A stretch of 64,000 bases of DNA from Eledone cirrhosa (taxonomy: Eukaryota): assembly GCA_964016885.1 (NCBI GenBank), contig OZ024743.1:9734001-9798000 (forward strand), written 5' to 3'. A program made the position numbers and the translations under genes. Position 1 is the first letter of the stretch. The number at the start of each line of letters is the position of its first letter. Shown here in pieces: positions 53,938-60,726 of the stretch. A model generated the notes under the pieces. It saw nothing but the letters and a program-made list of their open reading frames with translations, did not search any database and was not told where the DNA came from.

Positions 53938-54382
53938 ATATATATATATATATATATATATATATATATATATATATATATATAAATAAAATTATCGAGA
54001 ATCGAAACTTCGGCCCACGAAATAACGGCCCACGAAATAACGAAAAACAATCTCCGAAATGTGCGGCAAAGTGCTCAATGGTAATGGTTCGAATGAACCA
54101 GAGCTATAACTAACGTTTAATACCAAACACACTGAGACGATGCTTAAACAATCATTCGCACAGCCAAAAAATACGATCAAGTAATTCGGGTCAAACAAAT
54201 AAAAATATACATGATTGAAAAATAAACATGATTGAAAAATAAACATGATTGAAAAATAATTGAAAAAACAAAATAAAATATATATATATATATATATATA
54301 TATATATATATATATATATATATATATATATAATTAAGAGAGTAAAACAAAGAATCCTTTAATACATCAAAAGTTTTTATTA

Positions 54383-54420
54383 GCCGACAATGTTTCGTCC
54401 TATTAAGGACTCATCAGGGC
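54383..54420 (-). ncRNA. Minimal hammerhead ribozyme (left arm)
   Basis: GCC-CUGAUGA-GUCCU(UAAU)AGGAC-GAAA-CAUUG-UC-GGC: canonical core with GUC triplet. Confidence 0.85.
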
Positions 54421-57400
54421 AATCAAAACAACAAGAAGTAATATCGGCAGATACAAGCCGGAAGCTCCGAAGAATATGGAGTGTACATACACTAAAGTCA
54501 TGCAAAAATATATAATAAAAATAAAAATAAAAATAATAAAAATATATAATAAGAATAACTAAGGATGTATATAACATTAAGAACCATATTACAAATATAG
54601 TCCAAAGCAACTAACCTAAAGCTAAACAAATGTGGTTATATAGAGCAGGAATTATATATAACACAATGTAATATAACATAATACATTATAATAATATACC
54701 TTTACCAACATTAAAATTACAATTAAAAATCAAAAGGTACAATATATACATGTATATATGTGCGCGCACACACACACACACACACACACATACAACAATA
54801 CGCACATCTATGTTCAACTACACGAATTAAGCCTTATTAGAAGTTTGAATATAAAAATATAAAAAATAAGCATGATAAGAGTGAAAATAATACCAATACA
54901 TCTACCCAATATACATGAGGCAATAATATGATATAATTACAAGAGACACATATAATAAATAATAAACAATAAAATTATATAATTCAATATAATATAATAT
55001 CATATAATAGATAATCCCCGGTTAATTTACACAAACAATATAGATGTCACAATAATAATATAATGATAATATGTTAACAATGTACTAACATTTACAATAA
55101 ACAATATATACAAATCGATTCATACTGGGTTACAGAGTAAATGAGGAAAAATAAATTATACAATACTCAAAAAACACTATGATGGTACAGAAAAAATTAT
55201 GATGGTACAGAAAAAATATACAGACATCTTACATGATATGTAAAGTCTAAATATCATAATGTTACATATAATGAACAGTAAGTAATAAGGATCAATATTA
55301 CAATATTACAAAAATACAGACATCTTACATGATATATAAAGTTTAAATATCATAATGTTACATATAATGAACAGTAAGTAATAAGGATCAATATTACAAT
55401 ACAATATAATATAATATATTATATAAAATAAATTGACATAAAATAATATATGAATACTTATAATTACAAGGTTAGTAGACAGACATATGTGGATGTGTAA
55501 GTATAAGCCAGACAGTGAATAGTAAATAGAATATAACATATAGAATAAAATAAATAAATATAATCAACCGGAAATTACAAAACAAAAACAAATATATACA
55601 CATTCAGGTCTCACATGCGGTTAAGTAGTTAGGTAAAAACTAAGGAAAACAATCACTTTAATTGACTCAAAACCCTATTTGATAAATTAATATTAAAAAT
55701 ATTAAAACTATCCAATAAGGTAGTATAATATTAGCTGTAGTTTAAGTCATTAAAGTTTATAAACTTTAATGTTTCGTTACAAATGTTTACAAAAAGGAAT
55801 GAAATTTTTTACTATCATATACATAACGATATCTAAAAAACTGACTTAAGTAGAATTAAGGTAGGCTAATGGGGACAGAATTGAAGAAATATATGGAGGG
55901 TGCAAAGGGGCATAAAATATAGTCGATATACTATAATAAATAATAGAACGGAGCGTAAAAGAGGGGGGGGTTAAATATAATCATAGTCAATCTGGAGTGG
56001 TTGACAATAAGTTTATGTGCGCATGGGGGGAGGGGGAGGGGAGGGGGGTTATCCAAAGATGAATCTGAATAAAATTAAAAATAAAATTAAAAATAAAATT
56101 AATAATAAAAATAGAAATAAAGATAATAATAAAATAAAGTAAATGGCGTAAAGTGTGTAATCTTATATATATTAACAAGGTGTAATAGTGAAAACATAGA
56201 TATGGTACAGTAGCCAAATGATTATGAGAGCTAGAATGAAGAGTCATAAAAAACCAATGGTAATAATGATGATAACAATAATGTTGGCAAACAAAAGAAC
56301 CTAAACTAAAAAATAAGTAATGGAATATATCTGCTAATGGGTACAATTTGTACTACTAGAACGTTTGGGTTTATAATAAAAGTAAGAATTAGAAATGGCG
56401 TGGGGGCAAGAAGAGAATATCTCAGACTTTCTATTAAGTAAGGATACGCTAGAGAAAATTATAGAGTGTGTCTCAAGGTTACAGAGATTATAATTTTCTC
56501 TAGCGTATCCTTACTTAATAGAAATTCTGAGATATTCTCTTCTTGCCCCCACGCCATTTCTAATTCTTACTTTTATTATAAACCCAAACGTTCTAGTAGT
56601 ACAAATTGTACCCATTAGCAGATATATTCCATTACTTATTTTTTAGTTTAGGTTCTTTTGTTTGCCAACATTATTGTTATCATCATTATTACCATTGGTT
56701 TTTTATGACTCTTCATTCTAGCTCTCATAATCATTTGGCTACTGTACCATATCTATGTTTTCACTATTACACCTTGTTAATATATATAAGATTACACACT
56801 TTACGCCATTTACTTTATTTTATTATTATCTTTATTTCTATTTTTATTATTAATTTTATTTTTAATTTTATTTTTAATTTTATTCAGATTCATCTTTGGA
56901 TAACCCCCCCTCCCCTCCCCCTCCCCCTCCCCGCATGCGCACATAAACTTATTGTCAACCACTCCAGATTGACTATGATTATATTTAACCCCCCCCTCTT
57001 TTACGCTACGTTCTATTATTTATTATAGTATATCGACTATATTTTATGCCCCTTTGCACCCTCCATATATTTCTTCAATTCTGTCCCCATTAGCCTACCT
57101 TAATTCTACTTAAGTCAGTTTTTTAGATATCGTTATGTATATGATAGTAAACAATTTCATTCCTTTTTGTAAACATTTGTAACGAAACAGTAAAGTTTAT
57201 AAACTTTAATGACTTAAACTACAGCTAATATTATACTACCTTATTGGATAGTTTTAATATTTTTAATATTAATTTATCAAATAGGGTTTTGAGTCAATTA
57301 AAGTGATTGTTTTCCTTAGTTTTTACCTAACTACTTAACCGCATGTGAGACCTGAATGTGTATATATTTGTTTTTGTTTTGTAATTTCCGGTTGATTATA

Positions 57401-58535: not shown

Positions 58536-58573
58536 GTCCTGATGAGTCCTTAATAGGACGAAACATTGTTGGC
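58536..58573 (+). ncRNA. Minimal hammerhead ribozyme (right arm)
   Basis: GUC-CUGAUGA-GUCCU(UAAU)AGGAC-GAAA-CAUUG-UU-GGC: two C>U changes relative to the left copy (GUU triplet, G.U in stem I). Confidence 0.8.
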
Positions 58574-60726
58574 TAATAAAAACTTTTGATGTATTAAAGG
58601 ATTCTTTGTTTTACTCTCTTAATTTTTCGGCTCTGTTTAACTGCATTGAGCTATACCTTTTACTGTCATTTCTATAATACGTAGAGGGTGTTTAACTCCA
58701 ACACGCTCCAGTATTTTAATCCTTATATATATATATATATATATATATATATATATATATATATATATATATATATATATATATATAGAGAGAGAGAGAG
58801 AGAGAGAGAGAGAGAGAGAGAGAGAGAGAAGAGGATGGTGAGAATGAGAGAACACGTGTGTATGGATGCGTGTGTGAGAATGAGACAGAAAGGGAGAGAG
58901 AGAGAGAGAGCAAGAGAGAGAGAGAGAGAGAGAGAGAGAGAGAGAGAGAGAGAGAGAGAGAGAGAGAGAGAGAGAGAGAGAGAGAGAGAGAGAGAGAGAG
59001 AGAGAGAGAGAGAGAGAGAGAGAGAGAGAGAGAAAATGTTTATATAGAGATTTTTGTCGCAGAATTGCGAATGAAAAATGGAAAGAGTGAGGGAATAATA
59101 TGGAGGGTAGATATTAGGTGGAAAGGGAAAGTTGTGATATTATGAATAGCTTGACAGGTGGAAATATGAGGAAAAATGTAGCAAGAGCTATGTCTGTTGA
59201 AATGGATGGTGAGGTCAGGTGAATAAAGTTATATGTGAGAATGCAGAGTAGCTGGGGACAGTCAATAGGACACGTACACTAAAACAAGATAGAAAGTGCA
59301 TTGAAATAGCAAGCAACTACATAACTGCACTAACTGAAGGAATGACAGGCGTGGCAGCATGTCATGTCGTGAACAGTGTATGCACAACATGTTTATATAA
59401 GCCCAAGTGGTATATATAAAATATATATACTTGTATTCAATAATAAAATTACACGAATAAATGCTGATATAAATCTATAGAAAACGTTTGTAAGCTTGAA
59501 GAGAATATTTCTGGTGAAATTTGCGACGTATTTAAAGGTGATGTAGTGCAGAGAATACTATGTCGATTATAGGGTGTTGCTTCTATTTTTTGTGGAGGCA
59601 TCACGGATAACACCATGTATTCAGGCGGATTCTAGGGCTTATTTTAGGCTACGTATTTGAAGACATAAACGAACCGATTGTATAACTCGGGTCTCAGCCC
59701 AGTAAACATGGTAACTTTGGGCTTCAAAGTGGCCAACGAATACGCTGACGTAATTGTACCAACTTAAATATAGAGTGTCTTCAGATAAGCTATTTTACAT
59801 TGACAGTCTCAAATTAAACAAAGCCTGAAATTAAACAATTAATATGAAAAATTATATTTGATTAGCTAGTGATAAACATGTATAATTTGTTTAAATCCTA
59901 AGAACCTCTTAGCCTCATCTACATTCTCCTTCCCCCAAAAGATAACAAGTTTTACACATACTTCAAACAGTGCATAGCTCAATATACCTTCTACACTCAA
60001 TGACTACATATCGCTACCACATAGCATGAAACATCTTATACATACTTCAAACAGAGTACCTTTTATAAGTTCCACATCCAATAACCACATTTTATTACCA
60101 TATAGCATCAACGTTTTTCAGTTTAGATCTACTACTCCAAAATATTGAGTTATTGGAGATCGCTATAATTGTTGTAATTACCTGTATGAACATTCATAAA
60201 GTGATATAATTTCTCTGGTTTTCTTCTAGATTATTTCATAATAGGTGTCTCAGACGAATTAACCACTTTTATGAATTTTCAAAGAAATATTCGCATATAT
60301 TCAATTTAACTAGTATATAGGTAACATTTTGTATGTAACCAATCTACAAAAGATAAAATAAAGTTATCTAATCATTCTTGTTATTGAATAAAATTCCTAA
60401 CCGAGGTATGAATAATATATAATTATTAACAACGTATCACTGAATTGTTCTACGAGGGAAACGATTCAATAAACTATCGAGTGGTCAGATTTATCGTACT
60501 GACCATTCGTTAATTTATTGAATGATAAATATTCCTTCCATCCAAGTCTGCACTTATTGAATACATTTGCTCAACAAAACGCATTGATTACAATAATAAA
60601 ACCACGAAAATTTAGATTGAAACCCTTCTTCTTCAAATTTAGACAAAATCCAGATATACCGGGAAAACTATATCAGTTTTTAGTGAATTAGTCACAGGGT
60701 TATTTACTTTGGTAAACGCCACTGCA

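What the first reader, a model, noticed from the sequence alone, without database searches (positions are those of the whole stretch)
54332..58724. 4.3-kb palindrome with terminal hammerheads derived from a Naiad-like PLE with a 2-kb AT-rich 3' region
Seen: 2.13-kb arms with only about a dozen or so differences, a 25-nt spacer that is part of the endonuclease C-terminal coding remnant, and a canonical HHR plus AATAAA pointing outward on each strand. Read-through from either side would give a >2-kb dsRNA hairpin with an HHR near its 3' end, which full pairing would also mask. Such long near-perfect palindromes are normally unstable. Inference: a young foldback insertion and a potential ADAR or siRNA substrate in a lineage with heavy A-to-I editing.
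Basis: partly seen in the sequence, partly recalled or inferred. Interest (0 to 1): 0.75.

Follow-up and report, generated by a model that had tools for sequence, protein, structure and literature searches.

The report
Head-to-head Hydra Penelope retroelement insertion
This 4.3-kb mirror repeat is two shortened copies of a common jumping gene (a Hydra-type Penelope-like retroelement, not a Naiad) joined head to head in a TA repeat, a known insertion shape, and its sister copies suggest that both halves were likely written in one event from two fixed start points about 100 bases apart.

Summary
The palindrome is real: 2.13-kb arms differing by 11-12 substitutions and 5 indels, a 25-nt spacer and a hammerhead motif at each outer end. 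The parent is not a Naiad. It is a 4.9-kb Hydra-clade Penelope-like element (PLE) with RT followed by a C-terminal GIY-YIG nuclease, an 897-aa ORF and a 2-kb 3' region. The extra 101 nt on the right is the element's one-sided 'tail'. Head-to-head copies are routine in this family. On contig C1, 19 of 19 head-to-head end pairs join one tailless end to one tailed end, and in 3 of the 19 the arms share no sequence. In the window each arm holds sequence that the other lacks, so simple fold-back and library chimera do not fit; priming from both target ends is likely. The architecture is in print (PMC8557442, including Penelope-13_HM with hammerheads on both strands), and this scan reported it before for other families in this genome. 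What is unusual here is only long arms with a tiny spacer. The dsRNA/ADAR role is untested, and no read confirms this exact junction.

The parts
54279..54332 (.). left (TA)n target repeat
   Evidence: sequence; the 3' ends listed that are not tandem read-throughs join TA-rich repeats
54333..56490 (-). left arm: 5'-truncated copy of the Hydra-clade element, ends at site A (no tail); reaches 27 nt further 5' than the right arm
54383..54420 (-). hammerhead motif, family-majority form (stem I GCC/GGC, GUC triplet at 54388-54386)
56334..56490 (-). C-terminal remnant of the ORF (end of GIY-YIG region with the LNR and CxH motifs) on the left arm
56464..56488 (-). 25-nt spacer = unpaired 5' extension of the left arm (element coding sequence)
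56489..56490 (.). head-to-head junction, 2-nt microhomology
   Evidence: comparison with 7 longer copies
56489..58623 (+). right arm: 5'-truncated copy of the same element up to site A
56489..56618 (+). C-terminal ORF remnant with stop codon on the right arm
56619..58535 (+). about 1.9-kb AT-rich 3' untranslated region, inherited with the family (mirrored on the left arm)
58536..58573 (+). hammerhead motif with two derived changes (58537 C>T in stem I, 58570 C>T giving GUU)
58575..58580 (+). AATAAA, 4 nt after the predicted cleavage site; no poly(A) tails seen at the copies' ends
58624..58724 (+). 101-nt one-sided tail ending at site B; the same sequence begins full-length copies upstream of the ORF
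58725..58787 (.). right (TA)n target repeat, followed by (GA)n
   Evidence: sequence

Best explanation
The locus is an insertion of two 5'-truncated copies of a Hydra-clade Penelope-like retrotransposon joined head to head inside a (TA)n repeat, likely made in one event by priming reverse transcription from both ends of the cut target. Shown: family identity, the two fixed 3' end sites A and B 101 nt apart, the (TA)n target, and the pairing of one A end with one B end. Inferred steps: the RT-endonuclease (likely a dimer) cuts both strands of (TA)n; one 3'-OH primes cDNA at site B and the other at site A of the same RNA species; both cDNAs stop early (here 27 nt apart, perhaps at or near one RNA break); their 3' ends are joined over 2 nt of microhomology and filled in. 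The outward hammerheads and AATAAA are simply the element's 3' ends, so the palindrome is likely a passive by-product without a function of its own.
For: Domain order and motifs in an intact 897-aa ORF: RWR38, DKT129, YRDD360, CxCX5C748, IVY767/YIG782 with no CxxC between, CNLC846, LNR864, CPH874 (Pfam GIY-YIG at 617-647 of a 690-aa frame, below cut-off). These match the Hydra definition and, by eye, the Fig. S7 alignment. End rule: 19 of 19 head-to-head pairs among the 129 exact end matches listed for contig C1 are A+B (expected fraction 0.45 if independent; P 2e-6 at 0.5; 0.45 chance neighbours). In the similarity-picked set, 23 of 24 head-to-head loci with both ends probed are A+B (75 loci examined). 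Among the 19 C1 loci the 5'-longer arm is A in 8, B in 9, equal in 2; the 5' offsets are 159-3650 nt in 17; in 3 the arms share no sequence and in 2 more only 2-3 nt (my reading). Arms are closer to each other than to the nearest other fetched locus in 24 of 28 pairs of at least 300 nt, which fits one template. In vitro a Poseidon PLE protein cuts and extends both strands and starts at two internal sites that bound the tail (PMC11167929). Raw reads of other samples pile up at 58624 and 58720.
Against: Two A+A pairs exist: L050 and C3:183.93 Mb (seen by eye in the list). The window's 27-nt offset is far shorter than 17 of 19 unbiased loci, and 2 of 19 have zero offset, which fold-back would predict. 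The in vitro data come from a different clade, with a 30-40-nt tail. The 5'-shorter arm carries more derived substitutions (window 10 vs 2; pooled 174 vs 124, p 0.004, post hoc), which two equivalent cDNAs do not explain. No read or contig listed bridges this exact junction.
Confidence: 0.75

Rival explanations
1. Self-priming or fold-back on one strand (an antisense transcript or the first cDNA) makes a hairpin intermediate, which the endonuclease then trims at A on one arm and B on the other before insertion.
For: Proposed in print: self-priming on an antisense template (PMC3846280) and tail from 'EN-mediated resolution' (PMC8557442). The window's loop is only 27 nt with a 2-nt microhomology; 2 of 19 C1 loci have no loop. 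Staggered trimming would also give the A+B rule.
Against: Offsets of 159-3650 nt in 17 of 19 loci; 3 of 19 with no shared sequence and 2 more with 2-3 nt; in 8 of 17 the loop-bearing arm is the tailless one, as in the window, which plain fold-back cannot give. PMC11167929 maps the tail to RT start sites.
Confidence: 0.14
2. The palindrome is a transcribed, selected dsRNA source (ADAR or small-RNA substrate), possibly kept alike by gene conversion.
For: About 9 variants away from the family majority outside a poly-T patch are shared by both arms; any read-through would form a 2-kb duplex (sequence); a second PLE-end palindrome 400 nt upstream could supply read-through (speculation).
Against: Shared variants are equally explained by a common template. 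Arm-to-arm divergence in sister loci (median 1.1%) is close to nearest-neighbour divergence (median 1.5%), so strong homogenisation is not needed. Only transposon domains were found among 57 ORFs scanned in the window and 80 kb around it, apart from one weak PIG-M match at E 0.0025 (short exons would be missed). No A>G excess among arm differences (A>G 24 for 600 A, T>C 52 for 1049 T). The right-arm HHR is drifting from the family form.
Confidence: 0.07
3. Assembly or library artefact (fold-back chimera, or two haplotypes joined in inversion).
For: No listed read or contig spans the junction; derived differences are lopsided, 10 right vs 2 left, many of them transversions, as a poorly polished arm might be.
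Against: A chimera cannot create the 101-nt element tail on one arm and the 25-nt extension on the other, both ending at family-specific sites; flanks beyond the (TA)n are not mirrored; the same geometry recurs at 19 C1 loci; raw Illumina reads of another sample show an opposite-strand joint in the family (58474/58550, 3 reads).
Confidence: 0.04

Closest known systems
Hydra clade of Penelope-like elements (Craig et al. 2021, PMC8557442): Hydra-1_Obim, Hydra-1/2_Amil, Hydra-1_Ajap
   Same: Single ORF, RT then C-terminal GIY-YIG, DKT, CxCX5C linker, CxxC and CxH around E and N, no CCHH, canonical 3' HHR, (TA)n target.
   Different: Length 4.9 kb against under 3 kb; a 2-kb 3' region; roughly 130 extra Asn-rich residues after the RT thumb (by eye); RWR in place of RWK; tail 101 nt against the 30-40 nt given for PLEs; HHR sequence unlike that of Hydra-1_Obim.
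Penelope-13_HM (Repbase Hydra-clade entry, Files S1 and S2 of PMC8557442)
   Same: [quoted passage not shown]
   Different: Its inverted arm is 966 nt; here both arms are truncated to nearly the same point, giving a 2.13-kb palindrome with a 25-nt spacer.
Poseidon PAc of Anolis (PMC11167929)
   Same: AT-rich target, tail bounded by two RT start sites, both strands cut and extended in vitro; HHR not needed for insertion.
   Different: Other clade; HHR overlaps the ORF start there, while here it lies 56 nt before the tail and about 240 nt before the start codon of a tandem copy; no genome census of end pairing in the parts read.
Adineta vaga Penelope families (PMC3846280)
   Same: Inverted pLTR with the tail on one of them, palindromes at the inverted junction, long spacer before the 3' pLTR in Pen1, Asn-rich ORF inserts.
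   Different: The authors favour self-priming on an antisense template; Pen1 spacers differ between copies, whereas this 3' region is shared by the family.
L1 twin priming (PMC2837659, search listing only; details recalled)
   Same: Inverted, truncated insertion made with two primers from the target.
   Different: In L1 the two cDNAs cover adjacent parts of the RNA (recalled); here both start near the 3' end at fixed sites and can overlap by kilobases.
Naiad PLEs (PMC8557442)
   Same: (TA)n target, tandem and inverted insertions, tail.
   Different: Naiads have an N-terminal endonuclease with CCHH and no canonical HHR; this family has neither trait.

Membership tests
Naiad PLE | GIY-YIG endonuclease N-terminal to RT | tested here: not met
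   YRDD at 360, GIY-YIG at 767-784 of 897 aa
Naiad PLE | CCHH zinc finger in the endonuclease | tested here: not met
   no CxxC between IVY767 and YIG782
Naiad PLE | no canonical HHR | tested here: not met
   HHR motif in 124 copies
Hydra PLE | single ORF, RT then C-terminal GIY-YIG | tested here: met
   open ORFs of 885-898 aa from the first Met in 13 fetched loci; motifs; Pfam GIY-YIG E 0.002, below cut-off
Hydra PLE | DKT in place of DKG; RWK motif | tested here: met
   DKT129; RWR38 (conservative variant)
Hydra PLE | CxCX5C linker; CxxC and CxH around conserved E and N; CCHH absent | tested here: met
   CNCRVSANC748, CNLC846, LNR864, CPH874
Hydra PLE | canonical HHR near the 3' end | tested here: met
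   motif layout matches File S2 rows; Rfam 0 hits; cleavage untested
Hydra PLE | (TA)n target | tested here: met
   313 exact A-end and 747 exact B-end junctions with TA, control 0
Hydra PLE | generally under 3 kb | tested here: not met
   4,939 nt; the paper words this as a tendency ('generally short'), not a defining trait
Hydra PLE | RT phylogeny within the Hydra clade | not tested
   no tree built; only a by-eye match to Fig. S7 rows
PLE inverted insertion with one-sided tail | 5'-truncated inverted copy abutting the 5' end; tail on one end only | tested here: met
Active hammerhead ribozyme | self-cleavage after NUH | not testable with these tools
   MFE folds keep stem II but not the three-way junction
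ADAR or siRNA substrate | transcribed across both arms, edited or diced | not testable with these tools
   needs RNA reads; none were offered for this stretch

The most novel reading that the evidence does not exclude
Hydra-clade PLEs integrate by two-ended priming with built-in asymmetry: one target end always starts cDNA at site B and the other at site A, 101 nt inside, so that almost every two-armed insertion has exactly one tail and arm lengths are independent. Kilobase palindromes are then a routine product, and this family (intact 897-aa ORFs, an unusually long tail, over 1000 scorable ends) is a good system to settle how PLEs build inverted ends. The excess of substitutions in the 5'-shorter arm would mark an asymmetric second-strand or repair step.
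Probability: 0.6. Interest if true: 0.5.

Novelty: new member of a known kind. Interest (0 to 1): 0.27.

Why it matters
The locus itself is an ordinary product of a known element class. Its value is as evidence on an open question that PMC8557442 names: how PLEs form tandem and inverted insertions. An unbiased count (19 of 19 pairs A+B, arms that need not overlap) favours two primers over the published self-priming idea and links genome anatomy to the two RT start sites seen in vitro. It also shows that 2-kb near-perfect palindromes can persist in this genome long enough to collect about a dozen substitutions. The same mechanism was already proposed by earlier notes of this scan for other families, so this is a confirmation with a new family rather than a first sighting.

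Tried and rejected
Rfam at gathering score: 0 hits in the window. Sequencing-run search: no RNA holder listed. Laying contigs of X1-X5 and RAD reads of X7-X9 on 56440-58724 showed the family and its A and B ends but no listed record bridging this junction; residual depths of 7-16 for three window-specific alleles (58537 in X1, 57008 and 58682 in X2) are too weak to use, and X1-X3 may be the assembly's own sample. Monomer folding did not recover the HHR three-way junction; z-scores -2.1 and -2.9. Hidden inverted stubs at the 5' junction of 38 apparently single copies: only 2 showed a 7-nt stub, both B-type on A-ended copies; too few to count. Gene conversion test (inverted versus tandem duplicates in one locus) gave no consistent direction. 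A>G excess from edited templates: not seen. Host exons: none recognised among 22 window ORFs and 35 of the 66 flanking ORFs listed. Poly(A) role of AATAAA: ends join (TA)n directly. First pattern used the window's own junction variant and gave only 40 matches; the commoner junction was used next. Naiad was rejected on domain order. No protein database search or tree was run.
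Full report
Observation. The inverted repeat is in the sequence. Arms 54332-56463 and 56489-58624 align over 2132/2136 nt with 11 substitutions and 5 indel events around a 25-nt spacer; a projection that masks gaps counts 12 substitutions in 2089 columns, 0.57%. Both outer ends carry a hammerhead (HHR) motif (core at 58539 + and 54417 -) and AATAAA. Rfam did not call it. The insertion lies between two (TA)n runs. The palindrome stops at 58624; the last 101 nt of the finding's range are unpaired.

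What the arms are. A search of the own genome (3.0 Gb; window = G000:C4:9734001-9798000) with 56489-58724 gave 63 matches from 40 scored candidates of 3421, at 87-98% outside the window, with right ends clustered at query 2135 and 2236. Longer stretches showed the parent: a 4,939-nt element (L028) that begins with the same 101 nt that end the window's insertion, followed by an ORF, a 2-kb AT-rich 3' region, the HHR, and end site A or, 101 nt further, end site B. Thirteen fetched loci hold open ORFs of 885-898 aa from the first Met. In L062 the order is RWR38, DKT129, YRDD360, CxCX5C748, GIY-YIG 767-784 without CCHH, CNLC846, LNR864, CPH874. This is the Hydra clade as defined in PMC8557442 (section 11 read in full; Fig. 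S7 rows compared by eye), and it excludes Naiad, whose endonuclease is N-terminal and which lacks canonical HHRs (passages). I built no tree. The family departs from described Hydra elements by its length, the 2-kb 3' region, an Asn-rich ORF insert and a 101-nt tail.

The shape is known. PMC8557442 states that PLE insertions often carry an inverted 5'-truncated copy at the 5' end and a tail often present at one end only. Its supplement lists the Hydra entry Penelope-13_HM with such an inverted copy and an HHR on both strands (Files S1 and S2). PMC3846280 (passages) describes the tail on one of the inverted pLTRs and proposes self-priming on an antisense template. PMC11167929 (abstract, main text and start of methods) shows in vitro that a Poseidon protein cuts and extends both target strands, starts at two internal RNA sites that bound the tail, and does not need HHR cleavage. 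Of bioRxiv 10.64898/2026.07.22.740005 I saw the abstract only. Searches listed no paper whose title or abstract start gives a count of end pairing; the library is incomplete, so this is weak. One search (editing) I saw as a listing only and did not use.

Family census. Exact junction patterns give 313 A ends and 747 B ends joined to TA, control 0; B ends are probably shared with a related subfamily. The lists are complete for contig C1 (44 A, 85 B). Twenty neighbour pairs lie within 12 kb (0.45 expected by chance); 19 are head to head, and all 19 are A+B (expected 0.45; P 2e-6 at 0.5); the twentieth is a same-strand B+B. So 19 of 44 A ends on C1 have a B partner. Among 75 similarity-picked loci (window included; L053 dropped as overlapping L095), 24 head-to-head loci had both ends found by probe and 23 are A+B, L050 being A+A (L081 left out because its two probe hits face tail to tail). 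One more A+A pair is visible on C3. One locus (L033 = L115) is in both sets. Mapping the 19 C1 loci (my reading of the coordinates): the arm reaching further 5' is A in 8, B in 9, equal in 2; offsets are 159-3650 nt in 17; in L101, L114 and L116 the arms share no sequence, and in L102 and L104 only 2-3 nt. One of 19 (L103) has arms over 2 kb, with a 1.35-kb loop. Similarity-picked loci L034, L039, L042, L047 and L050 have 1.6-2.5-kb arms. The window is the extreme case of long arms with a very short spacer, which is also what a palindrome-seeking reader would pick.

Mechanism. In the window the left arm has 25 unpaired nt at its 5' end and no tail; the right arm has the tail. Neither can be a copy of the other, which rules out plain fold-back and library chimeras (logic). 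The simplest model is two primers: both ends of a cut in (TA)n start cDNA, one at A and one at B, and the two truncated cDNAs are joined, here over 2 nt of microhomology. Arms are closer to each other than to the nearest other fetched locus in 24 of 28 pairs (median 1.1% against 1.5%), as expected from one template. The enzymatic steps are inferred from another clade. The rival, a hairpin intermediate trimmed at A and B, explains the short loop here and the 2 zero-offset loci but not the non-overlapping arms. One result does not fit either model: derived substitutions fall 10 to 2 on the right arm, and across 37 pairs 174 to 124 on the 5'-shorter arm (p 0.004, post hoc, driven by a few loci; A against B 150 to 159; the end of one arm, L074, was assumed).

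Hammerheads and dsRNA. Of 124 HHR copies in the fetched loci, 112 have GUC and 12 GUU; 81 match the left-arm form exactly. The right arm has two derived changes, so it is drifting. Monomer folds do not show the three-way junction; minimal PLE HHRs are thought to need dimers (recalled) or protein. Nothing tested here shows transcription of the locus. Only transposon domains were found in the ORFs scanned in and around the window, apart from one weak PIG-M match, and short exons would be missed. There is no A>G excess among arm differences.

Reality of this exact locus. Reads from other samples confirm the family's ends (pile-ups at 58624 and 58720) and one opposite-strand joint, but no listed record bridges 56488/56489. 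The case against artefact is therefore structural, not read-based.

Earlier notes. The scan reported head-to-head Hydra or Penelope insertions and the two-start-point idea on other DNA of this genome; none is near this window. I had written the same reading before opening them and tested it here on a different family.

Verdict. Real, young, ordinary for its class: a new Hydra-clade family member showing a known architecture, with useful counts on an open mechanistic question. Interest 0.27.

Noticed in passing
window 53288-53936: Second, unrelated head-to-head PLE-end palindrome (arms about 295 nt, 7-nt centre, HHR motifs at 53524 - and 53646 +, about 40-nt tail on the right only, (TA)n flanks). 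High-copy: 86 matches, many whole palindromes and many arms starting at the same point. Its right arm points into the large palindrome 400 nt away.
   Followed up: partly
37 arm pairs: The 5'-shorter arm carries more derived substitutions (174 vs 124; window 10 vs 2, L034 10 vs 2, L023 7 vs 1, L026 6 vs 0). Unexplained; could be repair asymmetry, two templates or polishing error.
   Followed up: partly
window 58619-58621 equivalent; L069, L073, L091, L092, L102, L104: Several 5' truncations fall 1-3 nt before site A, and RAD reads pile up at 58621: a possible RNA 5' end, which would make the tail a terminal repeat of the RNA. A related subfamily that shares only the tail could also cause the read pile-up.
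   Followed up: no
L028:4350-4800 region of the ORF (about residues 480-620 of the full protein): Asn-rich insert of roughly 130 aa between RT thumb and linker that keeps the frame open; absent from the Hydra rows of Fig. S7; like the N-rich inserts of Adineta Penelopes.
   Followed up: partly
window 6395, 6897, 13141, 22527, 24276, 25108/25115, 63941: Further hammerhead-like motifs; 25108 (-) and 25115 (+) form another head-to-head pair.
   Followed up: no
window 60732-61087 and 62604-62959: 356-nt inverted repeat (98%) flanking 1.5 kb within an RT/integrase-bearing retroelement fragment.
   Followed up: no
window 34723-35308, 46376-46959, 50038-50623: Three copies of a roughly 580-nt repeat (96-98% over 300 nt), two of them flanking an RT ORF at 47536-48432.
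   Followed up: no
window 15827-21081 (-): LINE with APE endonuclease, RT and zf-RVT split by stops; similar intact copy in L126.
   Followed up: no
L022:1624-3975 and L040:4587-6485: Other PLE ORFs (Neptune-like linker in L022) lie next to copies of this family.
   Followed up: no
G000:C3:183931615-183932063: Four A-type ends within 450 nt in mixed orientation, including an A+A head-to-head pair.
   Followed up: no
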